A stretch of 64,000 nucleotides of DNA from a virus (taxonomy: Duplodnaviria; Heunggongvirae; Uroviricota; Caudoviricetes), in the IMG/VR virus record IMGVR_UViG_3300011399_000002, positions 55,871 through 119,870 of that record; one strand, 5' to 3'. Shown here one piece after another: positions 3,043 through 54,658 of this stretch. The notes beneath the pieces were generated by a model. It was not told the origin of the DNA. It searched no databases and worked only from the letters and a program-made list of their open reading frames with translations. Position 1 is the stretch's first letter. Every line of letters begins with the position of its first letter. The translations under genes were made by a program, and so were the position numbers.

Positions 3043-3586
3043 GATTGTTTTAGTAGGCAGCAATTCCATTGCTCGTCAGCGTGTTGCACGCTACCTAATG
3101 TACGAGGGCTTCACTCGTATGCATATGCTAGAGGGAGCCAAGCGAGCATTCAAATTGTTCTATGGCCCATCGTTTAGAACTAACACAGTTGCACCACAGA
3201 AGAAGGTGGACCTCTATGATGCTGTGTACAAGGTACTACCCGATGCATTTTTAGAGTACCTAAATTACCGTGTAATAAGAAGCGGGAAGAATATTGTAGT
3301 ACCAGATGCACGGTACGTTGATGAGGTTACATACCTTCATGATGAGTTAGGTTTTTGTATCGTAAGAGTCACTAGTGACTACAAGATGGTACGTCCGGGT
3401 AATGCTGTACGTGATGCGGGACCGGGAACAACTGTTCTTTATGAATCCTTTCTTCCATCCTTTAATGCTGCTAGTTACATGTACACACCTTACTACAGTG
3501 TCCATTGGTACGGAGACAAGGAAAAGGACAGGACAAGGGCCGCAGTAAAGCAAATGATAGACACCTTGAACCTCGGCTGGAAGTAG
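3029..3586 (+). CDS. hypothetical protein
   Basis: 185-aa ORF, ATGA overlap with kinase; no clear motif. Confidence 0.4.
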   Translation: MTQIKIVLVGSNSIARQRVARYLMYEGFTRMHMLEGAKRAFKLFYGPSFRTNTVAPQKKVDLYDAVYKVLPDAFLEYLNYRVIRSGKNIVVPDARYVDEVTYLHDELGFCIVRVTSDYKMVRPGNAVRDAGPGTTVLYESFLPSFNAASYMYTPYYSVHWYGDKEKDRTRAAVKQMIDTLNLGWK

Positions 3587-3598
3587 CGTACAATATTT

Positions 3599-4096
3599 GT
3601 GAACCCCATTCATTGGAGGTTCATCATGAGTAAAAGAAGTGCACACCTAACAAGGTTAACGATAGAAGGGATCAGCAGCTTCTCAGCATATAAAGGCGGG
3701 AGGCTTAACTATATCAGGGACTATGATCCTGACCCGACAATCAACGTTGACCTAACAGCAAAGATGGACGTAGAGCGGGCCATAAAAATCCTCTATGAAA
3801 GAGGGGAGTTAACCAAACAAGAAGTACAGATGCTTTTCTATGTAATGCTAGATGGTCGTCTATCAAGGCGGGATATAAGCAAAATGATCCAAGACCATGA
3901 AGGCTACTACGTAGACCAAAGAACCATCAGTAGAAGACTTGACTCAGCATACGGCAAGATATCAAAGTTTCTTGGCTATGAATACTCTGATGGCAGGGTC
4001 TTTAAGATGGTAGCAAAAGCATGGGGCAGACCTCATCCCTATATACTATCTGATGAGGAGATTGATAAGGTACAGACAGTTATGGAGCGTGTGTAA
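3599..4096 (+). CDS. putative HTH / sigma-region-4-like regulatory protein
   Basis: C-terminal RTISRRLDSAYGKISKFLGY resembles sigma region 4 HTH; weak. Confidence 0.35.
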   Translation: MNPIHWRFIMSKRSAHLTRLTIEGISSFSAYKGGRLNYIRDYDPDPTINVDLTAKMDVERAIKILYERGELTKQEVQMLFYVMLDGRLSRRDISKMIQDHEGYYVDQRTISRRLDSAYGKISKFLGYEYSDGRVFKMVAKAWGRPHPYILSDEEIDKVQTVMERV

Positions 4097-5571: not shown

Positions 5572-5927
5572 TGGAGACATTCTTATTACTCATCGTGCTT
5601 GTGGGTGTAGTAATCCTATGGGCCTATGACAAGTACAAGTTAAGACAATACACCGACGAGTACAACCATTTCAGTGAAGTGTTTGAGCTGGTCATGGACG
5701 GACAGGAAGATGTGGTCAGGGTAGTGAACGTAAATGCGTCCTCCCTACGCAGCCTACAGGCCACCGTAGACAGGCAGGACAAGAACGTTGCGATCCTGAG
5801 TACCCTCGTAGAGTTACATGCTGAGACACTAAAGGTAGGGGCAGACTTACGAAGTAAGTTAGAGTCAACAGCAATTCTTGATCTGCCTGTAGAGGAATTA
5901 GTTGATGAAGATGTTAACGAAGATTGA
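5571..5927 (+). CDS. hypothetical membrane-anchored protein
   Basis: N-terminal hydrophobic segment FLLLIVLVGVVILWAY; ATGG overlap. Confidence 0.35.
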   Translation: METFLLLIVLVGVVILWAYDKYKLRQYTDEYNHFSEVFELVMDGQEDVVRVVNVNASSLRSLQATVDRQDKNVAILSTLVELHAETLKVGADLRSKLESTAILDLPVEELVDEDVNED

Positions 5928-6132
5928 AGACGAGAAGATACTTAAATTAGCACTACGATTAGGACAAAAAATAGCGCCTCTAGATGCAAACCTAGAGGCG
6001 CAGGTAATAGAGATCGTTGAGGTGCTTAGAGAAGCATTCGACATAGGCTACTGGTCAGGGTTTAATGAAGGTGATCGTGACGGATATGATCGTGGCTATA
6101 ATGATGGACACGAAGACGGGTCTAGACAGTAG
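5902..6132 (+). CDS. hypothetical protein
   Basis: 76-aa ORF ending immediately before terminator. Confidence 0.3.
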   Translation: MMKMLTKIEDEKILKLALRLGQKIAPLDANLEAQVIEIVEVLREAFDIGYWSGFNEGDRDGYDRGYNDGHEDGSRQ

Positions 6133-17489: not shown

Positions 17490-17565
17490 GGCCCCTTAGC
17501 TCAATGGTTAGAGCATTTGTCTTATACACAAACGGTTCTAGGTTCGAATCCTAGAGGGGCTACCA
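17490..17565 (+). tRNA. tRNA-Ile (anticodon UAU)
   Basis: Manual cloverleaf: acceptor GGCCCCT/AGGGGCT, D GCTC/GAGC, anticodon stem TTTGT/ACAAA loop CTTATAC, T-arm CTAGG-TTCGAAT-CCTAG, encoded CCA. Confidence 0.7.
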
Positions 17566-17873: not shown

Positions 17874-18271
17874 AATTCAAAGTCTCTGATATCAATGATG
17901 ACGATCCTGAGATTTGGGTAAGTGTATTCGGGCGCAAGATAAAGACTGCTGCCGATGCATTTGAATTTCTCTATGAGCATCCAAACGCTTATGATCACGA
18001 TGATCAAAATGAATGGGATAAACTCACACTAAAGGATCGCTGGTCTGAGTCTCATGGTCAATTCATTGAACACATGACTCTTAGTGTAAGTAAAAAGGGT
18101 GTTTGGCTAGAGACTGGTCCTATCTATTGGGAAGATCAATTCCCTGATATGTACAAGCCTAGATGGCACACCAATATGCACGATATCCGTCTTGATGTTG
18201 GTGCAAAGACCTTTGAGAAGGCTCTCATTAAACTGGCAAAGAAAGTGAGAAAGTATTACGGTGACTATTAA
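17870..18271 (+). CDS. hypothetical protein
   Basis: 133-aa ORF, ATGA overlap. Confidence 0.45.
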   Translation: MKFKVSDINDDDPEIWVSVFGRKIKTAADAFEFLYEHPNAYDHDDQNEWDKLTLKDRWSESHGQFIEHMTLSVSKKGVWLETGPIYWEDQFPDMYKPRWHTNMHDIRLDVGAKTFEKALIKLAKKVRKYYGDY

Positions 18272-18962
18272 ATATTACAAAGTCGGTGGCGCAGTAAGAG
18301 ATGAAATCCTTGGTGTTAGGTCCAAGGATATTGATTTCGCAGTCGAGGCAGATAGTTACGAGGAAATGCGTGACGATCTTCTCAGTAAGGGCTCAATCAT
18401 TTGGCAGGAGCGCCCTGAATTCTTTGCAATCAGGGCTAAGCATCCAGATTTTGGCCCGGTAGATTTTACCCTATGCAGAAAGGAAGGGTTCTACTCCGAT
18501 AATAGGCATCCCGATAGCGTTGAGATTGGTACGATCTATGATGATCTTGCCCGTCGTGACTTTACAGTCAATGCTATTGCTCTGGATTTTACTGAGACTT
18601 CCTCAACAACATTGATTGATCCTCATGGTGGCGTAATCGACATTTCTAAGAATTTGCTTAGGTGTGTTGGTTCTCCTGAGGAAAGATTTACTGAGGACCC
18701 TCTAAGAATTCTACGTGCAGTTAGATTTCATATTGTGCGCGGGTTTGATCTGGACTTTGATCTAGAGGTAAGTCTTAGTTCTTTCCCTCTAATTGATGGC
18801 TTGAAGAAAATCCCTCTAGAGAGAATTTACGAGGAACTAAACAAGTGCTTTGCTCATGATACTTGGAACACGCTAATGTTCCTTGATAAGCATGAGTACC
18901 TGAAAGATGTAATCTTCCTAGAAATGGGTCTGAAACTGGCCCCAAGAATTAATGGTGACTAA
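18261..18962 (+). CDS. tRNA nucleotidyltransferase (CCA-adding enzyme) head-domain protein
   Basis: Class II polymerase-beta NTase signature GGAVRDEILGVRSKDIDFAV at N-terminus, RDFTVNA; 233 aa. Confidence 0.7.
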   Translation: MTIKYYKVGGAVRDEILGVRSKDIDFAVEADSYEEMRDDLLSKGSIIWQERPEFFAIRAKHPDFGPVDFTLCRKEGFYSDNRHPDSVEIGTIYDDLARRDFTVNAIALDFTETSSTTLIDPHGGVIDISKNLLRCVGSPEERFTEDPLRILRAVRFHIVRGFDLDFDLEVSLSSFPLIDGLKKIPLERIYEELNKCFAHDTWNTLMFLDKHEYLKDVIFLEMGLKLAPRINGD

Positions 18963-28228: not shown

Positions 28229-28431
28229 GTGCATACTATGAACTCATTAGAACTGAGTTTATCAACTTTGAGTATTCAGGTGAGAGTATTCAAGTTTGTC
28301 TAAATTGTGGTATAGAGATACAGGATGGTGAACGTATTCTAAGAGAAGTATTTAGAGTTATGGGGCATGATGATCATCTAGTATCTCTATGGCATATTCC
28401 TTGTTGGTATAGTGTGGAGACTGTAGAGTGA
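28225..28431 (+). CDS. hypothetical protein
   Basis: 68 aa, ATGA overlap. Confidence 0.4.
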   Translation: MSAYYELIRTEFINFEYSGESIQVCLNCGIEIQDGERILREVFRVMGHDDHLVSLWHIPCWYSVETVE

Positions 28432-29090
28432 AAGAATATCACAAGATTGACTCAGTATATAAGAGAGATGAAAGAGGAAAGTTTCTACTTGGTGAATTCT
28501 CTCGTCCTGAGTTTGAGTATCTAAAAGACCTTCCTTGGCTATGGACAGAGAAGATTGATGGTACTAATATCAGGGTAATGTGGAAGCCTGATGCTGCTTT
28601 TCCTGATGAGCCCTATATTAGTTTTGGAGGTAAGACTGAAAATGCTCAAATTCCCACTAAACTATATAGCCATCTAGCAACAACGTTTGCTCCATTGATG
28701 AATCAACTAATTGATACATTTGGAGAGACAGAAGTTTGTCTTTATGGTGAGGGATATGGAGCAGGAATTCAGAAGGGTGGAGGAAACTACTCTCCTGATC
28801 AAAAATTCATTCTCTTTGATGTAAAGATCGGAGATTGGTGGTTGACTAGGGAGAACGTAGAGGATATTGGGCGTAAGTTAAATATTCCTGTTGTACAACT
28901 AGGTCCACGCTATACTCTTTCTGAGATGATTGAGTATGTTGAACAAACTGCTAGGCTTCTAGAAGGAGCCCCATTTTCTAATATTGGAACAGCAAAAATT
29001 GAGGGTTGGGTAGGAACACCTGCTATTCCTCTATTTGCACGTAATGGTGATCGTATTATTACCAAGGTTAAGTATAGGGACTTTAAGTAA
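28428..29090 (+). CDS. RNA ligase-like nucleotidyltransferase (Rnl2-type)
   Basis: Motif I WTEKIDGTNIRV (KxDGxN), downstream YGEGYGAGIQKGG; size of an Rnl2 adenylyltransferase domain. Confidence 0.55.
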   Translation: MKEYHKIDSVYKRDERGKFLLGEFSRPEFEYLKDLPWLWTEKIDGTNIRVMWKPDAAFPDEPYISFGGKTENAQIPTKLYSHLATTFAPLMNQLIDTFGETEVCLYGEGYGAGIQKGGGNYSPDQKFILFDVKIGDWWLTRENVEDIGRKLNIPVVQLGPRYTLSEMIEYVEQTARLLEGAPFSNIGTAKIEGWVGTPAIPLFARNGDRIITKVKYRDFK

Positions 29091-36969: not shown

Positions 36970-37478
36970 GCCTCAAACTCCTTATTGAAGAGGACTTCTT
37001 CATGACGATTCTTGCGCAGTAAGTGTATGGCATCACGGGCAGTCATTCCCTGCTTCATCAGCGTTCGAACAACAACAAGTGAAGAGCGGTTCATCCCCGC
37101 CTGACAGTGTACCAAAACGTCAAGATTAAGGTCAAGTGCTGCCTTTACCATATCAGAGGCTTCTTCTACGGCTTCTACATTGACATTTGGGCCATCGTAT
37201 AGCCGATATTCCTGTAGGATTGTTCCTGCGGTCGTTTTATAGCGCCCCCAAGGGTAAAGTGACACTACAAGATCGAAGTTATCCCCAAGGTGCAGATTCT
37301 CCACGTATCCTCCATGCCAGAGATTTCCTCTTACATGGGTGATGATTGGAACCGTCGTTGATCGATCACTATTCTCATAATAGAACGTAATGTAGTGATT
37401 AAACGGGTCAGCACCATCTGGTGCGATCCATCCCTCCGTTTTATTGACTGTATTCTCGCCTTGATCTAGTTTAGGCAT
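36945..37478 (-). CDS. CX5R phosphatase (PTP/dual-specificity family)
   Basis: Signature VLVHCQAGMNRSSLVV (HCxxGxxRS P-loop). Confidence 0.6.
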   Translation of the reverse strand: MPKLDQGENTVNKTEGWIAPDGADPFNHYITFYYENSDRSTTVPIITHVRGNLWHGGYVENLHLGDNFDLVVSLYPWGRYKTTAGTILQEYRLYDGPNVNVEAVEEASDMVKAALDLNLDVLVHCQAGMNRSSLVVVRTLMKQGMTARDAIHLLRKNRHEEVLFNKEFEAWLISLDT

Positions 37479-38319
37479 GGGCTTTCTCCCTTATTGCATC
37501 CATCTTTGCTCTCCACTCCGTTGATCGGTCTGTTTTGATATCTTTTAATGGAACGATAACTAACTTTTCATAGCCCCGGTTATTGTCTATGATCGAGTCT
37601 GTTGTCATTACCCAATTGATGTACGTACTGCCTGAGAAAATCTTACCCTCAAATATTGTATTCTCACAGTGGGCGACAACCAGTACGATATTCCTAAAGC
37701 CTAGATCGTGCAGTTTCTCAGCGGCTAGAACGAACGTTCCACCCTTTGAACACAAGTCATCAACAATGATGACCGTATCGCTGGTCTTATTGCCTAGAAT
37801 CTCCAAACTAAGGATTCTACCTGTCGCAAAATCACGCTTTTTGAACCCAACTAGCGAATCAGGCGATTCTAGGCTTTCATAGCGCTTCTGTGCCCCAGCA
37901 TCGGGGAAAAATATCTGCGAACCCGGAAGATGCAGATATTCCTTGAAAAGATGCTCTGTTACGTTCACAACTTGGCATTTGTTGAGAAGGGCAGGAGTTA
38001 CGTCGGAATGAGGCTCGTAAACGACGACCTTGTTCCACTCCATCAAATTGATCAATTTCGTGATCGATTTGAGCGTGAAAATATACTCATCTGAATTACG
38101 ATCCATACGCGAGTAAGGAAAGTAAGTGATGTGTAAATCGGCTGGGAACCAAAGAGCCTTCCTGACTAGAAAAAGTCGGAGTAAATCTTCGTCCCCCTCG
38201 TACTTTAGCGTTACCTTATTTATTGCTTGTTTATGTTCAGAAAAGAAGGGTTTTGGTATATTTACCTCCCCATTGGGGAAATGACCGAATTTTATCTCTT
38301 GATCGTTGAATAGGATCAT
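37471..38319 (-). CDS. ribose-phosphate pyrophosphokinase (PRPP synthetase)-like protein
   Basis: PRTase-type motif VIIVDDLCSKGGTF and Prs N-domain; 282 aa. Confidence 0.75.
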   Translation of the reverse strand: MILFNDQEIKFGHFPNGEVNIPKPFFSEHKQAINKVTLKYEGDEDLLRLFLVRKALWFPADLHITYFPYSRMDRNSDEYIFTLKSITKLINLMEWNKVVVYEPHSDVTPALLNKCQVVNVTEHLFKEYLHLPGSQIFFPDAGAQKRYESLESPDSLVGFKKRDFATGRILSLEILGNKTSDTVIIVDDLCSKGGTFVLAAEKLHDLGFRNIVLVVAHCENTIFEGKIFSGSTYINWVMTTDSIIDNNRGYEKLVIVPLKDIKTDRSTEWRAKMDAIREKAHA

Positions 38320-39800
38320 ATCCGAGCCCTAATTTCCGCTAGTGTGTCTTCACGAACGAGTTTACCGTCAACAAAGAGGTCTTGTAGCAGATCATCCTCT
38401 ACTGCATCGCGCTCTACTTCGGTTAGCCCATCGCGGAAGCCAATTCCCCAAGGGGTCTTCCAAACAGTTACCATGCCTGTTTGGGACTTCTTGATGCCAT
38501 TGTCAGTGATAGGGTCTTTGAATAGGAATTTCTCTTCGCCCGCAATACGAGCGTATGTTGACTTTAGAGCAAAGGAGAAGGTATCGCGTGTGTTGTACTG
38601 ATAGGTGAAGCTACCAATACCGTATACCATGTTCGTTGATGCGAAGCCTTTTGTCTCTAATTGACGGCAAATCTCATCACAACGCTCTAGAGTAATGGCA
38701 TCACCGTAAATAACACCGATATGTGGGTCCAATTCCTTGTAACCCTTCTCATTGACCGTGCCGCCGAAGATATCCCAAAGGATTTCAACAACACCACGAA
38801 CAGCGTCAGGGTTGTCAGAAAGGGGATCGCCACAGATGATCTTGATAGGATCGCCTGAATCTGGTCGAATAACAACCTTACCATCGCGGGCAAGAATGTC
38901 AGGCTTTAGTGTGGCAATTACCCCATTTAGGACTTTCCACAGGTCCCAAGTGTCAGAAACGATGGAAACGTACCCGTTTGGATACACATTTGTTATAATG
39001 TTACGATAAGAGTCTAATTCGTTCTGTCCATATGCGCACATAACAGAATGCTCTGTGGCAGGGATGGAAGTACCGACTAACTCTTCTTCGATATTTGCCC
39101 CATAGAATTCCTCTAGGAACAGGATACCGGGAATAGAGTCGGTACCAACGAATGAGAGCAGGTGTCCTGCTGCACTGTACTTTGCAGTTTGCAGGGAACC
39201 CATTCCACGCATTGAGAAATCATGGCCTTGGAACGGGACAAAATCCTTTGATCCACCAGTCTTAAAAGCCCAGCCCAAAAGAAGGCTCTTAAAACGCTTT
39301 GCCAGTGTCGCACTTGTGCACATTTGCCAAAGCGAACACGACATAAGCGTTTCTATGTAGTTTGTAACCCAAAAGAATTCAGGAAGTGTGTTCTCAACAG
39401 TGAGAAGAGGAGTACGAATTTTAACGCTGGTTCCTTCGGGTACTGCCTTAATTCTGAGGGGCAGGTACCCTAACCTGTGGAGTGCTGCAATGTGATCAGA
39501 GTAAGGCTCTTCAACACCTAACGTTGATCGTATAACCCGCTCATACTCTTCAAGAACGTCCCTTTCAGGACGAGAGAAGAAGTTGTCATTAAAGTAGTCA
39601 ATTAGGTACTCTTTTACAAAGGCTTGGAAGCCGAAGGCAACAACAGAGTCTATATTGGGAATTCGTGAAGCCCTTGGTGTCCAAGTAGAGTATACCTTCT
39701 CTGTACCTTGCGGATATTGCTCCCTGTGTGAAACCTTGTAAAAATCACACAGCAAGGTTGCTGGGTATATATACTTCTCAGTTGTTCTTTGTAGCGTCAT
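38316..39800 (-). CDS. nicotinamide phosphoribosyltransferase (NAMPT/NadV)-like protein
   Basis: 494 aa, NAPRTase-family size and conserved blocks (GSKDFVPFQGHDFSMRGM, PDSGDP). Confidence 0.7.
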   Translation of the reverse strand: MTLQRTTEKYIYPATLLCDFYKVSHREQYPQGTEKVYSTWTPRASRIPNIDSVVAFGFQAFVKEYLIDYFNDNFFSRPERDVLEEYERVIRSTLGVEEPYSDHIAALHRLGYLPLRIKAVPEGTSVKIRTPLLTVENTLPEFFWVTNYIETLMSCSLWQMCTSATLAKRFKSLLLGWAFKTGGSKDFVPFQGHDFSMRGMGSLQTAKYSAAGHLLSFVGTDSIPGILFLEEFYGANIEEELVGTSIPATEHSVMCAYGQNELDSYRNIITNVYPNGYVSIVSDTWDLWKVLNGVIATLKPDILARDGKVVIRPDSGDPIKIICGDPLSDNPDAVRGVVEILWDIFGGTVNEKGYKELDPHIGVIYGDAITLERCDEICRQLETKGFASTNMVYGIGSFTYQYNTRDTFSFALKSTYARIAGEEKFLFKDPITDNGIKKSQTGMVTVWKTPWGIGFRDGLTEVERDAVEDDLLQDLFVDGKLVREDTLAEIRARI

Positions 39801-40126: not shown

Positions 40127-40341
40127 TACTTTACCCCTACTTCGCTTAGACAGTAGACACCGACTTTTACTTCTGCCACCCCTGAACTTCTAACTTCGAT
40201 ACAATCGGGCGCAAAGGTCCAAGGATAGGCTACAACAGAAGTAGGGGGTGGTCTAAAAAACGTAAGTAGCGCAAGCACAATAAAAATAATAACCCCAACG
40301 AGTATAACTACTAGGCAACCCCACAGGCCATCGTCACTCAT
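40126..40341 (-). CDS. small membrane protein
   Basis: LWGCLVVILVGVIIFIVLALLTFF TM helix. Confidence 0.35.
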   Translation of the reverse strand: MSDDGLWGCLVVILVGVIIFIVLALLTFFRPPPTSVVAYPWTFAPDCIEVRSSGVAEVKVGVYCLSEVGVK

Positions 40342-41390
40342 ATATACTCATTTACTCTTGTATGATTCTCAGAGGCAGTTGATGGACTTATACGTATGAA
40401 CTCAGCCCTATCACGTAATTCGGATAAGTTTTCTGCTCCGACGTAAGACATTCCACTTCGTAAGCCTCCCATAAGTTGTTTAAGTACCGCCGATACTGGT
40501 CCTTTGTAATCCACGAATCCAGATATGCCCTCCCTAGTAAAGAGTGCATCATTTGTACCAAATATAGACTGTCCTTGATAACGCTTGACTCTTCGTCCAC
40601 GTCCAGTATCAATAACCTCTCCGGGGGCTTCGTCAGTCCCGGCCAAAAGACTACCTAGCATTACAAGGTCAGCACCGGCTGCTAATGCTTTTACGATATC
40701 TCCTGCGCTTCTTATGCCTCCATCCGCGATAATAGGTATATGGTACTTTCTAGACTCCTGATAGCATTCCGCAATAGCAGATAGTTGCGGTACTCCGATC
40801 CCTGTAACAATTCTTGTTGTGCAGACTGATCCCGGTCCAATTCCGATTTTAATAGCATCCGCTCCTGCTGCAATAAGGTCAACTGTGCCTTCTGCTGTTG
40901 CAACATTACCAGCAACCACTCTGGCTGATGGGAAAAGGTCTTTAACTCTTTTGACAAGATCAATTACCTTTCTATGGTGTCCATGTGCTACATCAACGCA
41001 GACAATATAGGGGGCAAGATTACAGGAACCATCTATATGCCTGATAAAGTCTAGGCTTTCTTTCTGATCCCTTGTACCAACAGAGAATGCTACAGGGTAG
41101 CCCTCTGAGTAAAGGGTCTTAATATCACCTATTTGATCTGCTGGGGGCATGAAACGATTTAATATTCCTAAACCCCCTGCGTTGTGCATGGCGATTGCCA
41201 TTTCACGGCCAGTAACAAAATCCATGTTAGCACTGATGACAGGAATGGACAGATTCAGTCCTAAAAAGTCCTGAGACAGATCGATATCCTGTCTTGACTC
41301 TATTTCTGAATATGCTGGACGTATGAGTACATCATCGAATGTGAAGTAATCTTTCAATTCTAAATCCCTTCTGTTTTTGCATCCATGCAA
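40338..41390 (-). CDS. GMP reductase / IMP dehydrogenase-family enzyme (no CBS insert)
   Basis: Catalytic loop [14 protein letters not shown], 350 aa like GuaC. Confidence 0.75.
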
Positions 41391-50099: not shown

Positions 50100-50174
50100 G
50101 GCTCCGAACCTAAACGGACAAGGGTCTGTCTGCAAAACAGATTTTAGTGGGTTCGACTCCCACCGGAGTCTCCA
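50100..50174 (+). tRNA. tRNA-Cys (anticodon GCA)
   Basis: 75 nt, acceptor GGCTCCG/CGGAGTC, anticodon stem TCTGT/ACAGA loop CTGCAAA, T-arm GTGGG-TTCGACT-CCCAC, discriminator U, CCA. Confidence 0.65.
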
Positions 50175-50407: not shown

Positions 50408-51937
50408 ATGGCAAGATTAAACGCAACTAAGCGAACAAGGGTTACAGAAACATTAGCAGAGGAAACTACAACTAACCTAGCAGGTGGGAAGGCTTTTAAG
50501 TTAACTCCCCATGCAAAGTTAATTGAACAGGTTGTAGGTGCGTTCTGGAACGAGGATTTGTACTACGCTAAGGGCTCTAAGACTTCCGCACAGATTGTGC
50601 AGGGTGTTAAGGACGTAGCAAAGGATGATCCTAGATTCCCACTACAGCTAGCAGCATACGCTAGAAACGTTCTCTATCTGCGAACAACCCCACAGGTTTT
50701 GCTTGTGGAAGCATCACGTATTGAAGCGTGCAAGCCATTCGTTCGTGAATATACTTCAAAGATTGTAAAGCGAGCAGACGAATTAACTGATATCGTTGCT
50801 TACTACACTTCTACATCAGGCTCACACAAGGGCTTCCCTAACTCTCTAAAGAGAGGACTGGCTGATGCATTCGTGAAGTTTGATGAATACCAGTTAAATA
50901 AGTATGACTCTTCAAAGTCAGTTGTAACACTTGGTCAGGTAGCACAGTTAGTGCACCCAGCGTTGGGTAAGGCTATGTACAACTTCCTCACAAAGGATGA
51001 AGTTGATGCAGAGGCTCTTCCTAAGATTGGGGCTCTAAAGGCTCTATTGGCTAAGGATAAGATTGATGCAGAGGCTATCGAGTTAATCGGTAAGTCAAAT
51101 GTAACTTGGGAAACCCTTATCTCAAAGTTTGGGGCATCCAAGGAAACTTGGGAATTAGTAATTCCTAATATGGGTTATATGGCACTTCTTAGAAACCTAA
51201 GAAACTTCGAACAGAAGGGTGTCAATCTAACTCCTGTATTAGCACGGATTGCAAATCCTGAGGAAGTAAAGCGCTCAAAGCAACTTCCATATCGGTTCTA
51301 TTCTGCTTACCTACAGGTATCAGAACAGAAGGTGCAGCGTGCAATCGCTCAGGCGTTTGAACACAGCATTTCAAATGTCCGACTTGAAGGTCGTACAGCC
51401 GTTATGGTAGACTTGTCTGGAAGCATGGGATCAGCACTATCGGATAAGTCAGCAATGTCCTATCGAAACGTGGGTACCGTGCTTGGAGCCATCGTTGTAA
51501 AGAAGTCAGAGGAATCTGTAGCAATTGGTTTCGGTGATACCGCGCAGATTGCAAAGATCAACCCTGATGACACAATGATGACAAATATTGATAAGATTGA
51601 TAAGTTACCAGTGGGTCACTCAACTAATGCCTATCGAGGCTTCCAAGTCTTGGGCAACAGAGTAGTTGATCGTGTGGTAGTTATCTCTGATATGCAGTGC
51701 TACGGTGGTAACGAATACTACGGTAGTGGCCTATCAAACGCTTGGGATGAATACGTGAAGAACGTAAATCCAAATGCAAGACTCTACTCGCTAGATGTTA
51801 GCGCATATGGATCAAAGCAATTCCCAAGCAGAAAGAACAACGTTGTAACTCTTAACGGCTGGTCAGACAAGATCATCGATATGATTGGTGTCTACGAACG
51901 TGAAGGTGCAATGCTTGATGAGGTTAGAAAGTGGTAG
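50408..51937 (+). CDS. rsr: Ro60 ortholog Rsr (TROVE domain + vWA domain)
   Basis: N-terminal NLAGGKAFKL...VVGAFWNEDLYY matches the Rsr/Ro60 signature (NPAGG...GSxxGTYY), C-terminal vWA with MIDAS VMVDLSGSMGS; 509 aa. Confidence 0.75.
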   Translation: MARLNATKRTRVTETLAEETTTNLAGGKAFKLTPHAKLIEQVVGAFWNEDLYYAKGSKTSAQIVQGVKDVAKDDPRFPLQLAAYARNVLYLRTTPQVLLVEASRIEACKPFVREYTSKIVKRADELTDIVAYYTSTSGSHKGFPNSLKRGLADAFVKFDEYQLNKYDSSKSVVTLGQVAQLVHPALGKAMYNFLTKDEVDAEALPKIGALKALLAKDKIDAEAIELIGKSNVTWETLISKFGASKETWELVIPNMGYMALLRNLRNFEQKGVNLTPVLARIANPEEVKRSKQLPYRFYSAYLQVSEQKVQRAIAQAFEHSISNVRLEGRTAVMVDLSGSMGSALSDKSAMSYRNVGTVLGAIVVKKSEESVAIGFGDTAQIAKINPDDTMMTNIDKIDKLPVGHSTNAYRGFQVLGNRVVDRVVVISDMQCYGGNEYYGSGLSNAWDEYVKNVNPNARLYSLDVSAYGSKQFPSRKNNVVTLNGWSDKIIDMIGVYEREGAMLDEVRKW

Positions 51938-52075
51938 AAATCATAGTCCTTGTCCTGCTCTTCGGAATAGGAACGTTCTTGATCGGATTTGGGTTTGGTC
52001 GTTGGGGGTTGGAAACAACTATCGATGACCAACAGGCCCAAATCGAAGCACTTACTGGCGATCAAAATATATCTT

Positions 52076-52135
52076 AGTAGTGTAGTTTACGGTTACTTCT
52101 TTGCTTGAAACGAAATTAACACCGTACACGTTTTA
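52076..52135 (+). ncRNA. conserved-motif hairpin (element A of TAGTGTAG family)
   Basis: TAGTGTAGtttACGGTTACTTC...; TACGGTTA/TAACaCCGTA stem; 17 nt upstream of tRNA-Glu. Confidence 0.3.
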
Positions 52136-52151
52136 ATCTCTAGGATTTAAT

Positions 52152-52226
52152 GGCCCTATCGTCTATCGGATAGGACACCAGACTTTCAATCTGATAAGCG
52201 GGGTTCGACTCCCCGTAGGGCTACCA
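52152..52226 (+). tRNA. tRNA-Glu (anticodon UUC)
   Basis: Acceptor GGCCCTA/TAGGGCT, loop CTTTCAA, T-arm CGGGG-TTCGACT-CCCCG, CCA. Confidence 0.65.
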
Positions 52227-52237
52227 AAGACAACTTA

Positions 52238-52390
52238 ATAATAGTCTAGTGTCGGAAACGGTTACTTCTACAAACTTTTTGTTTCACTAACAAACCATCT
52301 AGTCCGGGTAATGCGGATCAGGTTGTGTGCGAAGCATGATTGACTCTAAGGAAAGGACTTAGTGACGAATCGGAAGTAAGACGATAAAGC
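52238..52390 (+). ncRNA. element B of TAGTGTAG family (candidate Y-RNA-like RNA)
   Basis: CTAGTGTCggaaACGGTTACTTC; GTTACTTC can pair with GGAAGTAAG ~110 nt downstream; no ORF. Confidence 0.3.
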
Positions 52391-52557
52391 CTCCGTTCCA
52401 TTTAATCTGACTATTACAATCTTTGCCCATTCAGTAGCAATGGACGCCAAACAAGCAGTCACCGGGCCATGTGGACTATACTGGTAGGGATATGGCTGTT
52501 GAGGTAGGAATGGTCCACCATGTTTATTGCTACCGAATGCGCAAAGCGCAGAATTTA

Positions 52558-52700
52558 GGATAGTGTAGATAACAGTTACTTCTCTTTGGGCGACGTGATG
52601 TGGGTTCGAATCCTACTCTCCCAACAAAATCGATGGGAGATAGCTTAATGGTAAAGCGCGAAAATTTCTGTAGTCGCTTTAATCTTCCTAAAATAGTCAT
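52558..52700 (+). ncRNA. element C: Y-RNA-like RNA with tRNA-like module
   Basis: TAGTGTAGataACAGTTACTTC, then T-arm GTGGG-TTCGAAT-CCTAC, 7-bp loop-capped helix TCTCCCA/TGGGAGA, then D-arm GCTT-AATGGTA-AAGC. Confidence 0.4.
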
Positions 52701-52795
52701 CGCTCACCCAGTAGACGAATTCATACAAGGCAGAACGTAAGGGTTGCAACCGCCCGCCTATGAAATGGTCTACCGGATGCGCGACGGCGCATCAA

Positions 52796-52915
52796 TCTTT
52801 AGTGTAGTGTTTGTTACGGTTCCTTCGATAAATGTATATCAATTGACTTCAAATCAATCTTTGTAGGTTCAAGTCCTACAGGAATAATGTCCGTAGCGCC
52901 TCTATCCTCACTAAT
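52796..52915 (+). ncRNA. element D: Y-RNA-like RNA enclosing a tRNA-like cloverleaf (anticodon-position UCA)
   Basis: TTAGTGTAG pairs with CTA(tcct)CACTAA ~95 nt downstream; enclosed 52818-52887 folds as acceptor GGTTCCT/AGGAATA, D GATA/TATC, ATTGA-CTTCAAA-TCAAT, T-arm GTAGG-TTCAAGT-CCTAC, no CCA. Confidence 0.4.
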
Positions 52916-52922
52916 ATATCGC

Positions 52923-52999
52923 TCTCCTATGGTGTAACTAGGTAAGCATACCTGTCTGTTAAACAGTTGGTATAGGTTCGAATCCTGTTGGGAGAGCCA
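52923..52999 (+). tRNA. tRNA-Asn (anticodon GUU), tentative
   Basis: Acceptor TCTCCTA/TGGGAGA, loop CTGTTAA, T-arm ATAGG-TTCGAAT-CCTGT, CCA; U1-A72 start unusual. Confidence 0.5.
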
Positions 53000-53004
53000 A
53001 CTTT

Positions 53005-53202
53005 TTGAGGTGTTATATGGCAAACTTCAAGCGCAAGCACCCTAAGCACAGAATCCTACGGGATTGCAATGCTCATTGTAAATACGATGGAAGTCACTAT
53101 ACTAGTATAAATGGTAGGGAAAGATACCTACCGATGTATTGGAAGAAGGTGGGTGGAAGACACGCTTGGAGATACCTACATAAGAACGTAGACATTCGCT
53201 GA
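53005..53202 (+). CDS. hypothetical basic protein
   Basis: 65 aa, His/Lys/Arg-rich, between two tRNAs. Confidence 0.3.
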   Translation: MRCYMANFKRKHPKHRILRDCNAHCKYDGSHYTSINGRERYLPMYWKKVGGRHAWRYLHKNVDIR

Positions 53203-53273
53203 GGATTGGTGTAACGGCAGCACCGGAGATTTTGGTCCTCCTAGAAAGGGTTCGAATCCCTTATCCTCTGCCA
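53200..53273 (+). tRNA. tRNA, probably Gln (anticodon UUG)
   Basis: D-arm GGTG-TAACGGCAG-CACC, T-arm AAGGG-TTCGAAT-CCCTT, acceptor TGAGGAT/ATCCTCT, CCA; anticodon arm imperfect. Confidence 0.5.
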
Positions 53274-53381
53274 ACTTAGGAGATTAAATGCAGCACCAGA
53301 TCATTCGTGTCCTCAATGTACTTGGACTATACCGTTGTACTTGTGGGGCAACAGGCGATCTATCATGGGTAGCAGAACACG

Positions 53382-53981
53382 TTGTTAAGAATCAGTACGA
53401 GGTTAAACCTAATGTCCCTAGAGGAGAGTAGATTTACACCAGCAAGAGATTGGTGTATGCATCCTGAATATTGGCATTCTCCTGACTCAGAGGCTACCGA
53501 AATGGAAGTCACTGGGTTTTTAGGTGCTTTAGTGACAATGATACAGCCAGAGTATGTTGTTGAAACAGGAACATATCACGGGCATACGGCAGCAGCAATA
53601 GGTGCGGCACTTTATGTAAACGGTCATGGACGCTTGGTAAGCATTGAGAATAATGGTGAGCATTATGAGGAAGCTTTACATACTTTGGATGGATGGAATT
53701 ATCCAGTCAAACTCGTTCATGGCAATACGATGGATTTTGTCCCCGAACAAAACATCGATTTTGCTTTCTTTGATTCTTGGCAGGAAGGACGTATAGAAGA
53801 GTATACACGATTCTATTCTCTAGGTTTTTTGAAACCCGGAGCAATCGTAGCCTTCCATGATACCGCACCACATCATCAGGTACGAAAGACTATTCTACCC
53901 TTAGAAGGAATTGGTGAGGGCGAGTTAAGGATCATTGATTTCCGAACACCGCGAGGACTAATTTTGGGGCAAGTAAGATGA
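53382..53981 (+). CDS. class I SAM-dependent O-methyltransferase (family 3-like)
   Basis: VVETGTYHGHTAAAIGAAL motif I, FFDSW motif like catechol-type O-MTases. Confidence 0.6.
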   Translation: MLRISTRLNLMSLEESRFTPARDWCMHPEYWHSPDSEATEMEVTGFLGALVTMIQPEYVVETGTYHGHTAAAIGAALYVNGHGRLVSIENNGEHYEEALHTLDGWNYPVKLVHGNTMDFVPEQNIDFAFFDSWQEGRIEEYTRFYSLGFLKPGAIVAFHDTAPHHQVRKTILPLEGIGEGELRIIDFRTPRGLILGQVR

Positions 53982-54658
53982 CACTTACAATAGCTGTCCT
54001 ATCATGGGGATCACATAAGACACTAATAAACACATTAAACAGTTATGAAGAATACGGACTGTATAATCTAGCAGATGAACGAATCATATGGTTTCAGGAA
54101 TTCACCAAGCCTGACCTAGAGATAGCAAGAAGATACGGGTATCATGCCTACGGATCACCTACTAACATAGGGATATCCGGGGGATATAAAGGGCTTGTCC
54201 AATTAGCGACAAGCGATCTTTTTTTATTTTTAGAGAATGACTGGCTCCTAACTGAGGACCCAACACAACAGATAAAAGATGCTAAGGCTCTCATAGGATC
54301 AGGCTACGCTGACGTTGCAAGACTACGGAGCAGGAATAATCCCGGTCATCCCCTGTGGACTAAGCAGTTTGAGGGGAATGAGTTAAGCCGACCAGAGCAT
54401 CTTCTTGATTCAATCCACTGGACTAACCCGTCTAGATTCTACCAGATCAAGCCTGTACTTGGTACATGGTTTGAGACTATAGCACCATTTGCAAATTGGA
54501 CCAACAATCCAACCATGTTTAGACGTGAGTGGTTAATTGAAAACATTCTCCCTCGATTAGATGGTGATATTGAAAGAAGTATCCAGTCTTGGTGGGAGGA
54601 GCAAAGTTTCAAGGTTGTTCAAGGTGAAGGACTTTTCACTCATTGGAGATTAGATTGA
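53978..54658 (+). CDS. hypothetical protein (possible sugar-transfer enzyme)
   Basis: 226 aa, ATGA overlap, inside methyl/glycosyl-transfer cluster. Confidence 0.45.
   Translation: MTLTIAVLSWGSHKTLINTLNSYEEYGLYNLADERIIWFQEFTKPDLEIARRYGYHAYGSPTNIGISGGYKGLVQLATSDLFLFLENDWLLTEDPTQQIKDAKALIGSGYADVARLRSRNNPGHPLWTKQFEGNELSRPEHLLDSIHWTNPSRFYQIKPVLGTWFETIAPFANWTNNPTMFRREWLIENILPRLDGDIERSIQSWWEEQSFKVVQGEGLFTHWRLD

What the first reader, a model, noticed from the sequence alone, without database searches (positions are those of the whole stretch)
52818..52887. tRNA-like cloverleaf with UCA at the anticodon position and no encoded CCA
A 70-nt segment folds into all four arms. The acceptor is GGTTCCT/AGGAATA (6/7 pairs with G1-A72 mismatch). 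The D-stem is GATA/TATC. The anticodon stem is a perfect ATTGA/TCAAT with loop CTTCAAA (U33, anticodon UCA, A37). The T-arm is a perfect GTAGG-TTCAAGT-CCTAC. UCA would decode UGA (opal suppressor, or Trp as in code 4). No ORF in this window shows in-frame TGA, so recoding is not supported here. The element sits inside Y-RNA-like element D, so it may be a decoy/mimic rather than a decoding tRNA. The phage also encodes its own CCA-adding-type enzyme (18261-18962), which could mature a CCA-less RNA.
Basis: partly seen in the sequence, partly recalled or inferred. Interest (0 to 1): 0.6.

Follow-up and report, generated by a model that had tools for sequence, protein, structure and literature searches.

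The report
tRNA look-alike inside phage Y RNA
The apparent "stop-codon-reading tRNA" is most likely not a decoding tRNA: it is the tRNA-shaped middle of one of four small structured RNAs (Y RNAs) encoded just after a phage copy of the Ro60/Rsr RNA-binding protein, which matters because gene finders will mislabel such elements as suppressor tRNAs.

Summary
Bases 52818-52887 (+) fold as described, and ARAGORN (tRNA-SeC, tca) and Rfam tRNA (49.1 bits) both accept them.

It does not look like a free-standing tRNA gene.
- It is the core of a 116-nt module (52799-52914). The module's ends form two conserved helices carrying the motifs 5' UAGUG and 3' UAAUCU-like.
- Three other modules share these motifs. 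All four lie within 1 kb downstream of a phage Ro60/Rsr gene (50408-51937). One of them is a classic permuted YrlA-type Y RNA.
- A covariance model built only from three related phages recovers the whole module as the top hit in the window (52.6 bits). Real tRNAs match only the model's core.
- In module context, G1 and G2 pair with a downstream CC (P about 1). This explains the G1-A72 mismatch.
- Orthologous modules keep the anticodon-like stem through compensatory changes, but the triplet varies (UCA, CUU, UUU, GUA, UAU, CUA and others).
- All 16 other tRNA genes of this phage encode CCA; this element does not.
- 71.7 kb of the roughly 120-kb genome shows no TGA recoding.

Best reading: a Y-RNA tRNA mimic with an unpermuted cloverleaf, a new variant of a known kind. 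Binding to Rsr and the function are inferred, not shown.

The parts
50408..51937 (+). Phage Ro60/Rsr orthologue (509 aa); presumed protein partner of the RNA modules downstream
   Evidence: Pfam TROVE 1.5e-35 plus Ro60 vWA 2.1e-7. More than 1500 homologues, several labelled 60 kDa SS-A/Ro ribonucleoprotein.
52071..52146 (+). Y module A (76 nt, minimal, no tRNA-like insert)
   Evidence: Signature scan: closing helix, UAGUG, GGUUACUUC, UUUUAAUCU, closing helix.
52239..52416 (+). Y module B (178 nt) with a conserved insert of about 100 nt and unknown role
   Evidence: Signature scan. Full-length hit of model R1, 24.8 bits, E = 0.0012. Insert conserved in L082, L084, L086 and L091.
52554..52692 (+). 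Y module C (139 nt): classic circularly permuted YrlA-type tRNA mimic (T arm, closed acceptor hairpin, D arm)
   Evidence: Partial Rfam YrlA hit at 52596-52657, 27 bits, below the gathering score of 69. nhmmer finds many homologues next to Ro genes. Signature scan.
52799..52914 (+). Y module D (116 nt): the complete element that contains the reported cloverleaf
   Evidence: Top hit in the window of model R1, which was built from three other phages: 52.6 bits, E = 1.9e-10, model positions 1-133. MFE structure. Signature scan.
52799..52804 (+). Closing helix, 5' strand UUAGUG; pairs with 52909-52914 CACUAA
   Evidence: MFE. Closing helices differ in sequence but stay complementary across modules.
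52805..52809 (+). Conserved 5' basal motif UAGUG
   Evidence: Invariant in alignment A3. Present in 121 unique modules from 49 Ro loci.
52812..52819 (+). Helix 2, 5' strand UGUUACGG; pairs with 52891-52898 CCGUAGCG. Includes G1 and G2 of the 'tRNA'.
   Evidence: P(G1:C) = 0.998 and P(G2:C) = 0.97. Six of 7 pairs show compensatory changes among 8 D-type modules.
52818..52887 (+). tRNA-like core as reported: 5-7 bp acceptor, D arm, anticodon-like arm, 4-nt variable loop, T arm, A73
   Evidence: ARAGORN tRNA-SeC(tca). Rfam tRNA 49.1 bits. Isolated fold gives the cloverleaf at -13.1 kcal/mol.
52849..52851 (+). UCA triplet at the anticodon position, in loop CUUCAAA (52847-52853)
   Evidence: The homologous triplet in other D-type modules is UUU, CUU, CUU, GUA, UAU, CUA, CAG, UAA and others.
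52885..52890 (+). Six-nt 3' bulge UAAUGU (U71, A72, A73 plus UGU) between the 5-bp acceptor and helix 2. Orthologues carry a GNRA hairpin at this point.
   Evidence: MFE. Orthologue sequences.
52899..52908 (+). 3' basal motif CCUCUAUCCU, a variant of the family's (C)GCC-UAAU(U)CU
   Evidence: aligned to model positions AAacUAAuCU.
52776..52793 (+). Conserved hairpin GAUGCGC-GACG-GCGCAUC immediately upstream of module D
   Evidence: Terminator-like hit. Conserved with covariation in L002, L082 and L084.
52152..52226 (+). Bona fide tRNA-Glu(UUC) with encoded CCA, lying between modules A and B (context)
52923..52999 (+). Bona fide tRNA-Asn(GUU) with encoded CCA, 9 nt after module D (context)
18261..18962 (+). 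CCA-adding/poly(A)-polymerase-type nucleotidyltransferase (context: could act on tRNA-like ends)
   Evidence: Pfam PolyA_pol head domain 8e-24.
28428..29090 (+). RNA ligase (context: phage RNA-repair toolkit)
   Evidence: PHROG 548 RNA ligase, 2.1e-19.

Best explanation
Bases 52818-52887 are the tRNA-shaped effector domain of a phage Y RNA, module D (52799-52914). They are not an independent suppressor tRNA gene.

The module is one of four tandem Y-RNA-like RNAs (A-D, 52071-52914). They are probably co-transcribed with the phage Ro60/Rsr gene and the interleaved tRNA genes, and cut out of that array.

Its 5' and 3' ends pair into a bulged stem: a closing helix, the UAGUG / UAAUCU-like internal loop, and helix 2. 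By analogy with known Y RNAs, this stem is the Rsr-binding part.

The cloverleaf sits on top of that stem through its acceptor end, so it has no free CCA end. It presents a tRNA-like L-shape and an anticodon-like hairpin to some tRNA-recognising partner. Following the known Y-RNA role of tethering Ro60/Rsr to an effector or gating its cavity, the candidates are a nuclease, a modification or repair enzyme, RNase P, or the CCA-adding enzyme.

The UCA triplet is incidental.

Shown here: the fold, the flanking helices and their covariation, homology to modules in other Ro loci, the lack of anticodon conservation, and the contrast with the phage's real tRNA genes.

Inferred, not shown: Rsr binding, the transcript ends, and the identity of the partner.
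For: 1. Position. A Ro60/Rsr gene ends 861 nt upstream on the same strand. The Y-module signature occurs only four times in the 64-kb window, all between 52071 and 52914 on the + strand. It does not occur on the - strand, and shuffles give a mean of 0.3 per window.

2. Neighbour. Module C is a permuted YrlA-type RNA (Rfam YrlA partial hit; many Ro-adjacent homologues). It shares the same basal motifs as D.

3. Leave-one-out test. Model R1 was built only from L002, L082 and L084. It finds 52799-52914 as the best hit in the window, full length, at 52.6 bits (E = 1.9e-10). Genuine tRNAs match only model positions 27-92.

4. Covariation. In a hand-registered alignment of 8 D-type modules, 98.9% of cells pair against 38-45% when partners are slid. 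Sixteen of 22 pairs show compensatory changes: helix 2 has 6 of 7 and the anticodon stem 5 of 5.

5. Thermodynamics. In module context G1 and G2 pair with the downstream CC (P = 0.998 and 0.97), and the 7-bp acceptor form is 9.5 kcal/mol worse. This explains the G1-A72 mismatch and the G2-U71 wobble.

6. Orthologues at the same position are not usable tRNAs. L002, L082 and L084 have a 3-4 bp acceptor plus an inserted GNRA hairpin. Their triplets are UUU, CUU and CUU; other D-type modules have GUA, UAU, CUA, CAG, UAA and more.

7. Contrast with real tRNAs. All 16 other tRNA genes of this phage encode CCA and have 43-57% GC. This element has TGT after A73 and 33% GC, and it lacks G18G19.

8. No TGA recoding. 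Code 11 gives 88% coverage by ORFs of at least 100 codons, with stops TAA 36, TGA 32 and TAG 28. In 71.7 kb, single-stop-split open frames number TAG 5, TAA 1 and TGA 2, and one of the two TGA cases is the natural end of PolA.

9. Literature. Y RNAs are encoded next to Ro60 in bacteria and phages and mimic tRNA (PMC4201824). A phage Ro60 binds its adjacent Y-like RNAs and affects host PNPase (PMC12135203).
Against: - No direct evidence that the phage Rsr binds module D.
- The family lacks the GNCGAAN0-1G/CGAA motif considered the Rsr recognition element in YrlA (PMC4201824, PMC12135203). Module D gets no Rfam YrlA hit, and module C reaches only 27 of the 69 bits required.
- The window copy is the most tRNA-like of its close orthologues: a potential 7-bp acceptor, A73, a canonical 7-nt loop with U33 and A37, and a canonical T loop. 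Processing into a free tRNA-like RNA therefore cannot be excluded. A 7-bp acceptor is what makes M. smegmatis YrlA an RNase P substrate that then receives CCA (PMC4201824).
- One distant D-type module (L065 883-958) even has a perfect 7-bp acceptor followed by ACCA.
- Alignment A3 was registered by hand with pairing in mind, so its percentages lean towards the structure.
- About 40% of the genome, including most structural genes, was not available.
Confidence: 0.75

Rival explanations
1. It is a working UGA-decoding tRNA (opal suppressor, or Trp-like as in code 4). RNase P and 3' trimming would release it from the module, the phage CCA-adding-type enzyme would complete it, and a host or phage synthetase would charge it. 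It would read through TGA in some genes, possibly late genes outside the window.
For: - ARAGORN and Rfam both accept it.
- It has a canonical anticodon loop (U33, A37), a canonical T loop, and U8, A14, A15-U48, G53-C61 and A73.
- The phage encodes a CCA-adding-type enzyme.
- Most structural genes lie outside the 71.7 kb examined.
Against: - No TGA-specific signal: TGA ends 32 of 96 long ORFs, and split-frame counts are no higher for TGA than for TAG.
- The 1727-aa ORF and the tail-spike-like ORF are intact in code 11.
- None of 18 related phage loci has a tRNA(UCA). The homologous element carries other triplets and a crippled acceptor.
- G1 and G2 are sequestered in helix 2.
- It is the only one of 17 tRNA-like genes without an encoded CCA, and it has the lowest GC.
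- G18G19 is missing and position 1-72 is a G-A mismatch.
Confidence: 0.08
2. It is a decaying copy: a D-type module, or an old tRNA gene, that is degenerating in this lineage and no longer has a function. The UCA triplet and the good-looking cloverleaf would then be accidents.
For: - Compared with L002, L082 and L084 it has lost the GNRA hairpin and two D-loop bases including the GG. It is 116 nt against 130-133 nt.
- Its 3' basal motif is the most divergent: CUAUCCU against UAAUCU.
- GC is 33%.
- No closer relative exists to test purifying selection on this exact form.
Against: - All four stems, helix 2 and the closing helix are intact, with only one G-U.
- The deletions preserved pairing and in fact lengthened the acceptor.
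- The T loop and the U8/A14/A15-U48 tertiary positions are kept.
- The element still scores 52.6 bits full-length with the orthologue model.
- Modules of this type persist across very distant Ro loci.
Confidence: 0.12
3. The flanking helices are not an Rsr-binding Y stem. They would be a generic processing or stability cassette, for example a nuclease recognition hairpin, that packages assorted small RNAs in this operon. Module D would then be a cassette-wrapped tRNA-like RNA unrelated to Ro biology.
For: - The canonical CGAA/GNCGAAN0-1G motif is absent, and Rfam YrlA scores stay below the gathering score.
- Sixty-three of 121 modules have no tRNA-like part at all.
- A terminator-like hairpin precedes module D.
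Against: - The signature was found only in Ro-encoding loci, on the Ro strand, in 49 loci including very distant ones.
- Modules with the same base contain the permuted T-acceptor-D core that Rfam's YrlA model aligns at full length, for example L004 5879-5983.
- Adjacency on the same strand as Ro60 is the criterion used to define bacterial and phage Y RNAs (PMC4201824).
- Caveat: every locus searched was selected for having Ro, so the association was not tested against Ro-less genomes.
Confidence: 0.05

Closest known systems
YrlA-type bacterial and phage Y RNAs (Rfam RF02553; Chen et al. 2014, PMC4201824; structure in bioRxiv 10.1101/312249)
   Same: - Encoded within 1 kb of a Ro60/Rsr gene, on the same strand.
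- The 5' and 3' ends form a long bulged stem.
- The middle folds into a tRNA-like domain with a canonical T arm and D arm and no free CCA end.
- Several copies per locus.
- Module C next door is of this type.
   Different: - YrlA is circularly permuted (T arm, closed acceptor hairpin, D arm), and the Rsr stem replaces the anticodon arm. The structure paper states that it lacks an anticodon loop.
- Module D is unpermuted. It keeps a 5-bp anticodon stem with a 7-nt loop, and its stem leaves from the acceptor end.
- It lacks the GNCGAAN0-1G motif and gets no Rfam YrlA hit.
Deinococcus radiodurans Yrn1 (as drawn in Chen et al. 2014, PMC4201824)
   Same: According to that paper, Yrn1 has the opposite orientation to YrlA. 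The T-like and D-like elements are in tRNA order, and the stem-loop between them occupies the anticodon-arm position. The Rsr stem is therefore at the acceptor end, as in module D.
   Different: Yrn1 has no full D arm, a 6-nt 'anticodon loop' and no variable arm (PMC4201824). Module D has all four arms with canonical lengths and passes tRNA detectors. No sequence similarity was detected or tested here.
Phage-encoded suppressor tRNAs linked to stop-codon recoding (from my own knowledge: Ivanova et al. 2014; Borges et al. 2022)
   Same: A phage gene that tRNA finders call with a stop-codon-complementary anticodon (UCA).
   Different: Recoded phages show genes interrupted by the reassigned stop. 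Here TGA behaves as an ordinary stop in 71.7 kb. The element is also embedded in a Y-RNA stem, lacks the CCA that this phage's tRNA genes encode, and is not conserved as UCA in relatives.
[quoted passage not shown]
   Same: A Y-RNA tRNA mimic whose acceptor can reach 7 bp. This makes processing by tRNA enzymes conceivable, and the window phage carries its own CCA-adding-type enzyme.
   Different: M. smegmatis YrlA is the permuted type. For module D the 7-bp form is predicted to be strongly disfavoured before any cleavage. Nothing has been tested experimentally.

Membership tests
Canonical decoding tRNA | Cloverleaf recognised by tRNA detectors | tested here: met
   ARAGORN tRNA-SeC(tca); Rfam RF00005 49.1 bits against a gathering score of 29.
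Canonical decoding tRNA | Seven-bp acceptor stem with ends accessible for RNase P and 3' processing | tested here: not met
   G1-A72 mismatch and G2-U71 wobble. In context G1 and G2 pair with the downstream CC (P = 0.998 and 0.97), and the leader and trailer are base-paired. This is a prediction only.
Canonical decoding tRNA | 3' CCA, which every tRNA gene of this phage encodes | tested here: not met
   Sixteen of 16 other tRNA genes encode CCA; this one has TGT after A73.
Canonical decoding tRNA | Conserved elbow nucleotides (G18, G19, T54, Psi55, C56, A58) | tested here: inconclusive
   The T loop UUCAAGU is canonical. The D loop AAUGUA has only one G, whereas orthologues have AAUGGAUA.
Canonical decoding tRNA | Anticodon conserved among orthologues | tested here: not met
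   The homologous triplets are UCA, UUU, CUU, CUU, GUA, UAU, CUA, CAG, UAA and others, while the stem covaries.
Canonical decoding tRNA | Aminoacylation and ribosomal decoding | not testable with these tools
   Needs acid-gel or tRNA-seq and read-through assays.
Suppressor tRNA of a stop-codon-recoded phage | In-frame reassigned stop codons (TGA) in phage genes | tested here: not met
   Code 11 gives 88% coverage by long ORFs; TGA ends 32 of 96. Split-frame counts are TGA 2, TAG 5, TAA 1 in 71.7 kb. About 40% of the genome was not examined.
Y RNA (Ro60/Rsr-associated ncRNA, general) | Encoded close to a Ro60/Rsr gene and on the same strand | tested here: met
   The Ro gene ends at 51937 and module D starts at 52799, both on the + strand.
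Y RNA (Ro60/Rsr-associated ncRNA, general) | The 5' and 3' ends form a long bulged stem | tested here: met
   MFE structure. Covariation in the closing helix and helix 2. Full-length hit of the orthologue model.
Y RNA (Ro60/Rsr-associated ncRNA, general) | Bound by Ro60/Rsr | not testable with these tools
   Needs RIP/CLIP or gel-shift with the phage protein.
YrlA (Rfam RF02553) | Score at or above the family gathering threshold (69 bits) | tested here: not met
   No YrlA hit on module D. Module C reaches 27 bits, and the best relatives reach 33 bits.
YrlA (Rfam RF02553) | GNCGAAN0-1G (CGAA) motif near the 5' end | tested here: not met
   The aligned position carries (C/G)AGUUACUUC in this clade and GGUUCCUUCG in module D.
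YrlA (Rfam RF02553) | Permuted order (T arm, closed acceptor hairpin, D arm) with no anticodon loop | tested here: not met
   Module D has the order acceptor 5' strand, D arm, anticodon arm, T arm, acceptor 3' strand, with a 7-nt anticodon-like loop. Module C does meet this feature.

The most novel reading that the evidence does not exclude
Unpermuted, full-cloverleaf Y RNAs may form a distinct and widespread class. Fourteen or more were seen here across distant Ro loci, often called as tRNA-Lys, Ile, Leu, 'Pyl' or 'SeC' by ARAGORN. Their freely varying but canonically shaped anticodon loops could act as baits or sensors for tRNA-targeting enzymes such as host anticodon nucleases. That would couple the phage Rsr to the phage's own tRNA-repair kit (RNA ligase, CCA-adding enzyme, 17 tRNA genes).

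A still bolder version: copies with a 7-bp acceptor (this window; L065 883-958, which also has ACCA) are cleaved out and charged. They would then act as conditional stop-codon readers stored on Rsr.
Probability: 0.15. Interest if true: 0.8.

Novelty: new variant of a known kind. Interest (0 to 1): 0.5.

Why it matters
Practical. tRNA finders label this element, and similar ones in other Ro-encoding phages, as suppressor-type tRNAs: SeC/UCA here and 'Pyl'/CUA in L065. In phage genomics such calls are taken as a hint of stop-codon recoding, and here the hint would be false. Encoded CCA, GC content and the flanking UAGUG...UAAUCU stem separate these elements from real tRNA genes.

Biological. The tRNA-like domain of bacterial Y RNAs is known only in a circularly permuted form without an anticodon loop, and its binding partner is unknown. 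A clade of uncultured phages of about 120 kb carries 4-8 tandem Y modules per genome in several tRNA-like topologies. These include complete cloverleaves whose anticodon stems covary. This gives a natural series of variants for asking what the tRNA-like domain is recognised by, in a genome that also carries an RNA ligase and a CCA-adding-type enzyme.

Tried and rejected
- Close relatives by DNA. Megablast of 52000-54000 against 50,697 phage records gave no match. An exact 38-nt search for the anticodon-to-T-arm segment in IMG/VR also gave none. The UCA form itself has no known second occurrence apart from other assemblies of the same phage.
- IMG/VR scan with the Ro protein. This returned one distant locus only. 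tblastn of the Ro protein against cultured phages reached at most 32% identity, so no host or cultured relative is known.
- Code-4 reading. Rejected: making TGA a sense codon lengthens open frames no more than doing the same for TAG or TAA.
- PolA read-through. The TGA at 47982 is followed in frame by a 94-aa ORF. I rejected this as read-through because the Pfam domain ends at the stop and the frame relation is not kept in L084.
- Genome walking. Two look-ups failed because the TTG-start ORFs do not match the recorded gene calls. One worked and added 7.7 kb.
- MAFFT on whole D-type modules misaligned the 3' halves. I replaced it with a hand-registered alignment of the helices only, with the bias that implies, and with a leave-one-out covariance model.
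- My first T-arm classifier had an off-by-one error; it was corrected. The 'permuted' count there still includes some D-type modules that carry an extra hairpin after the T arm.
- Excess of stop-complementary triplets among D-type modules (UCA, CUA, UUA). With A/U-rich loops and about 12-15 modules this is not significant by a rough binomial estimate, so I make no claim.
Full report
**1. The observation**

- acceptor GGTTCCT/AGGAATA, with a G1-A72 mismatch and a G2-U71 wobble
- D stem GATA/TATC, with a 6-nt loop AATGTA
- anticodon stem ATTGA/TCAAT, with loop CTTCAAA
- 4-nt variable loop
- T arm GTAGG-TTCAAGT-CCTAC
- discriminator A followed by TGT, so no encoded CCA

ARAGORN reports it as tRNA-SeC(tca). 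Rfam's tRNA model gives 49.1 bits, against a gathering score of 29, with E = 1.7e-7 over the whole window.

**2. The surroundings**

The window is part of an uncultured phage genome of about 120 kb (contig of 119,888 bp). It encodes ribonucleotide reductase, a DnaG-type primase, PolA, NAD-salvage enzymes and a RuvB-like ATPase, an RNA ligase and a CCA-adding/poly(A)-polymerase-type nucleotidyltransferase at 18261-18962.

The ORF at 50408-51937 is a Ro60/Rsr orthologue (TROVE 1.5e-35 plus the Ro60 vWA domain). A repeated RNA module occurs four times in the 1 kb that follows it:
- A, 52071-52146
- B, 52239-52416
- C, 52554-52692
- D, 52799-52914

Genuine tRNA-Glu, tRNA-Asn and tRNA-Gln genes are interleaved with, or follow, these modules.

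Each module has the same layout:
- a closing helix of 5-8 bp whose sequence differs between copies
- the 5' motif UAGUG
- a second helix
- the motif GUUACUUC (GGUUCCUUCG in D)
- a variable insert
- the return strand of helix 2
- a 3' motif UAAUCU (CUAUCCU in D)
- the return strand of the closing helix

A scan for this signature finds exactly these four sites in 64 kb, none on the other strand, and a mean of 0.3 in shuffled windows. Module C contains the circularly permuted T arm / closed acceptor hairpin / D arm that defines YrlA-type Y RNAs. It gets a partial Rfam YrlA hit, 27 bits against a gathering score of 69, and has many nhmmer homologues beside Ro genes.

**3. The reported cloverleaf is the insert of module D**

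Folding 52799-52914 gives the cloverleaf's D, anticodon and T arms and a 5-bp acceptor (UUCCU/AGGAA). This is followed by a 6-nt 3' bulge (UAAUGU, which includes U71, A72 and A73), then helix 2 (UGUUACGG/CCGUAGCG), and then the basal loop and closing helix UUAGUG/CACUAA. The MFE is -24.6 kcal/mol.

G1 and G2 of the 'tRNA' are the last two bases of helix 2 and pair with a downstream CC:
- P(G1:C) = 0.998
- P(G2:C) = 0.97
- P(G2:U71) = 0.0002

The alternative with the tRNA-style acceptor costs 9.5 kcal/mol. This explains why the top of the tRNA acceptor looks defective (G-A, G-U): those two 'pairs' probably do not exist in the primary transcript. This is a thermodynamic prediction, not a measurement.

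**4. Relatives**

The Ro protein has about 68 relatives at 50-70% identity, on contigs of up to 124 kb. I fetched 18 such loci.

Synteny is conserved: tRNA-Ser, Ser, Ala, (Cys), Ro, modules with tRNA-Glu, tRNA-Asn, tRNA-Gln. None of these loci has a tRNA(UCA).

At the position of module D, the closest loci (L002, L082, L084) carry a 130-133-nt module with the following features:
- the same flanks
- a canonical D arm with loop AAUGGAUA
- a 5-bp anticodon-like stem with a 7-nt loop
- a canonical T arm
- only a 3-4-bp acceptor
- a GNRA hairpin (GCC-GCAA-GGC, or CGC-GCAA-GCG) between the acceptor and helix 2

ARAGORN calls two of them tRNA-Lys(ctt).

Their anticodon arms compare as follows:

| Locus | Anticodon arm |
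|---|---|
| L002 | UGUUU-UCUUUAA-AGACA |
| L082 | UUGUA-CUCUUAA-UACAA |
| L084 | UUUCU-CUCUUAA-AGAAA |
| window | AUUGA-CUUCAAA-UCAAU |

The stem changes completely but always pairs. The triplet is not kept.

**5. Objective tests of homology and structure**

A covariance model (R1) was built only from L002, L082 and L084, with the structure above. It finds 52799-52914 as the best hit in the window:
- 52.6 bits, E = 1.9e-10
- model positions 1-133, so both flanking helices are included

Real tRNAs match only the inner core (positions 27-92). Modules B and C give weaker full-length hits through the shared stem.

In a hand-registered alignment of the helices of eight D-type modules, 98.9% of cells form standard pairs, against 38-45% when partners are slid by 1-3 columns. 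Sixteen of 22 pairs show changes on both sides: helix 2 has 6 of 7, the anticodon stem 5 of 5, and the T stem 3 of 5. No shuffle out of 500 reached the observed values. The registration was made with pairing in mind, so these figures lean towards the structure. The leave-one-out model does not have that bias.

**6. The class is wider than this clade**

The basal signature is present in 121 unique modules from 49 of the Ro loci fetched, including distant ones.

R1 and a simple arm finder identify at least 14 D-type (unpermuted) modules. ARAGORN labels several of them as tRNAs:

| Locus | ARAGORN call |
|---|---|
| L039 | Ile(tat) |
| L065 744-816 | 'Pyl'(cta) |
| L065 883-958 | Leu(cag) |
| L050 | Leu(taa) |
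| L082, L084 | Lys(ctt) |
| window | 'SeC'(tca) |

The L065 Leu(cag) element has a class-I variable loop, a perfect 7-bp acceptor and ACCA.

The triplets seen are UCA, UUU, CUU, CUU, UAU, CAG, CUA, GUA, UAA, UUU, AAU, UUA, CAC and CAA. The loop usually keeps U33 and purine-37-like positions. The shape of the anticodon arm therefore appears to be selected, while the triplet is not.

**7. Contrast with the phage's real tRNA genes**

Ten other tRNA genes lie in the window, and six more in the 7.7 kb beyond it. All of them encode CCA after the discriminator and have 43-57% GC. The UCA element has TGT and 33% GC. Its D loop has lost the GG that its own orthologues keep.

**8. Recoding**

Under code 11, ORFs of at least 100 codons cover 88% of the window and end in TAA 36, TGA 32 and TAG 28 times. 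Treating TGA as a sense codon lengthens frames no more than doing so for TAG or TAA.

Over 71.7 kb (the window plus L089), same-frame open stretches of at least 80 codons separated by one stop number TAG 5, TAA 1 and TGA 2. One of the two TGA cases is the natural end of PolA. A 1727-aa ORF and a tail-spike-like ORF are uninterrupted.

About 40% of the genome, with most structural genes, could not be fetched. Recoding of late genes is therefore not strictly excluded.

**9. Comparison with what is known**

- Chen et al. 2014 (PMC4201824) showed that Y RNAs are encoded next to Ro60 in more than 250 bacteria and in phages, and contain a tRNA-like domain. They also showed that M. smegmatis YrlA, which has a 7-bp acceptor, is cut by RNase P and receives CCA in vivo. 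D. radiodurans Yrn1 has the opposite orientation, with an imperfect 'anticodon arm'.
- A phage Ro60 (Thermus phage phiLo) binds adjacent Y-like RNAs through a CGAA motif and attenuates host PNPase (PMC12135203).

Module D shares the genomic context, the stem formed by its two ends, and the tRNA mimicry. It differs in three ways:
- its topology is unpermuted, with the stem at the acceptor end
- it has a canonical anticodon-like arm
- it lacks the GNCGAAN0-1G/CGAA motif; the aligned position carries GUUACUUC

It fails the Rfam YrlA threshold. I therefore file it as a Y RNA in the functional and contextual sense, and as a new structural variant. It is not a member of RF02553.

**10. Mechanism, with its status**

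Shown: the fold, its embedding, the covariation of flanks and arms, its position beside Ro, non-conservation of the triplet, and dissimilarity to the phage's tRNA genes.

Inferred:
- The module is cut from a Ro-tRNA-Y RNA co-transcript. No sigma-70-like promoter was seen on the + strand within 52000-52900.
- The bulged stem binds the phage Rsr.
- The cloverleaf recruits or occupies a tRNA-recognising factor, as proposed for YrlA.

Which factor is unknown. The RNA ligase and the CCA-adding-type enzyme in the same genome make tRNA damage and repair a natural context. A decoy or sensor role for anticodon nucleases is speculation; I give it about 0.15.

**11. Verdict**

The finding is real.

As a 'suppressor tRNA' it is most likely a false lead. 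As a Y RNA it is an interesting new variant of a known kind, and a useful warning for tRNA annotation in Ro-encoding phages.

Noticed in passing
window 52239-52416 (insert about 52270-52395); L082 5526-5695, L084 5474-5648, L086 5434-5608, L091 4355-4527: Y module B carries an insert of about 100 nt with a strongly conserved block (GACUCUUAGGAAAGGACUAAGUGACGAAUCGGAAGUAAGACGAUAAAGCC). It is not tRNA-like and has no Rfam match. It may be a different effector-binding domain.
   Followed up: partly
window 52417-52553 and 52693-52798; L002 about 3480-3630, L082 about 5860-6020, L084 about 5800-5885: A second conserved structured element lies between the modules and lacks the UAGUG signature (AGUCAUCGCUCACCCAGUAG ... 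CUACCGGAUGCGCGACGGCGCAUC). It ends in a hairpin (52776-52793) that covaries in L084 and scores as terminator-like. Its nature is unknown.
   Followed up: partly
L084 5284-5427, L086 5252-5386, L092 2849-3003: A third tRNA-like topology in Y modules: a closed acceptor hairpin, then D arm, anticodon-like arm (loops UUGAAGG, CUUUUAA, CUUUAAC) and T arm. All four arms are present, but the stem enters between the T arm and the acceptor.
   Followed up: no
L065 744-816 and 883-958; L039 1093-1165; L050 5927-6002; L092 3199-3274: ARAGORN labels Y modules in other Ro loci as tRNA-Pyl(cta), Leu(cag), Ile(tat), Leu(taa) and Pro(tgg). The L065 Leu(cag) element has a perfect 7-bp acceptor followed by ACCA but a short variable loop, so some modules may be processed like tRNAs.
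   Followed up: partly
window 50100-50171 (+): A tRNA-Cys(GCA) found by Rfam (50.5 bits) but missed by ARAGORN. It encodes CCA and matches the tRNA-Cys seen at this position in relatives.
   Followed up: yes
window 18261-18962, 28428-29090, 50408-51937, plus 11 tRNA genes in the window and 6 in L089 18562-20438: The phage carries an RNA-maintenance kit: a CCA-adding-type nucleotidyltransferase, an RNA ligase, Ro60/Rsr with four Y modules, and 17 tRNA genes that all have an encoded CCA.
   Followed up: partly
window 53018-53202 (+); L002 3976-4160: A small conserved ORF between tRNA-Asn and tRNA-Gln (MANFKRK...RYLPMYWKK.GG..WRY.HKNV). It is basic and Cys/His-containing, and its function is unknown.
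   Followed up: no
window 17493-17558 (tRNA-Ile UAU) compared with model R1 positions 27-92: The core of the D-type module model scores 50.5 bits on the phage's tRNA-Ile(UAU). The distant module L039 has the same anticodon stem as the window (AUUGA/UCAAU) with loop CUUAUAA. D-type cores probably descend from a real tRNA, possibly of the Ile(UAU) type.
   Followed up: no
window 37471-39800 (-), 40338-41390 (-): NAD-salvage and nucleotide genes: ribose-phosphate pyrophosphokinase, NAMPT-type phosphoribosyltransferase, and an IMPDH/GMP-reductase-family enzyme. These are typical auxiliary metabolism genes of large phages.
   Followed up: no
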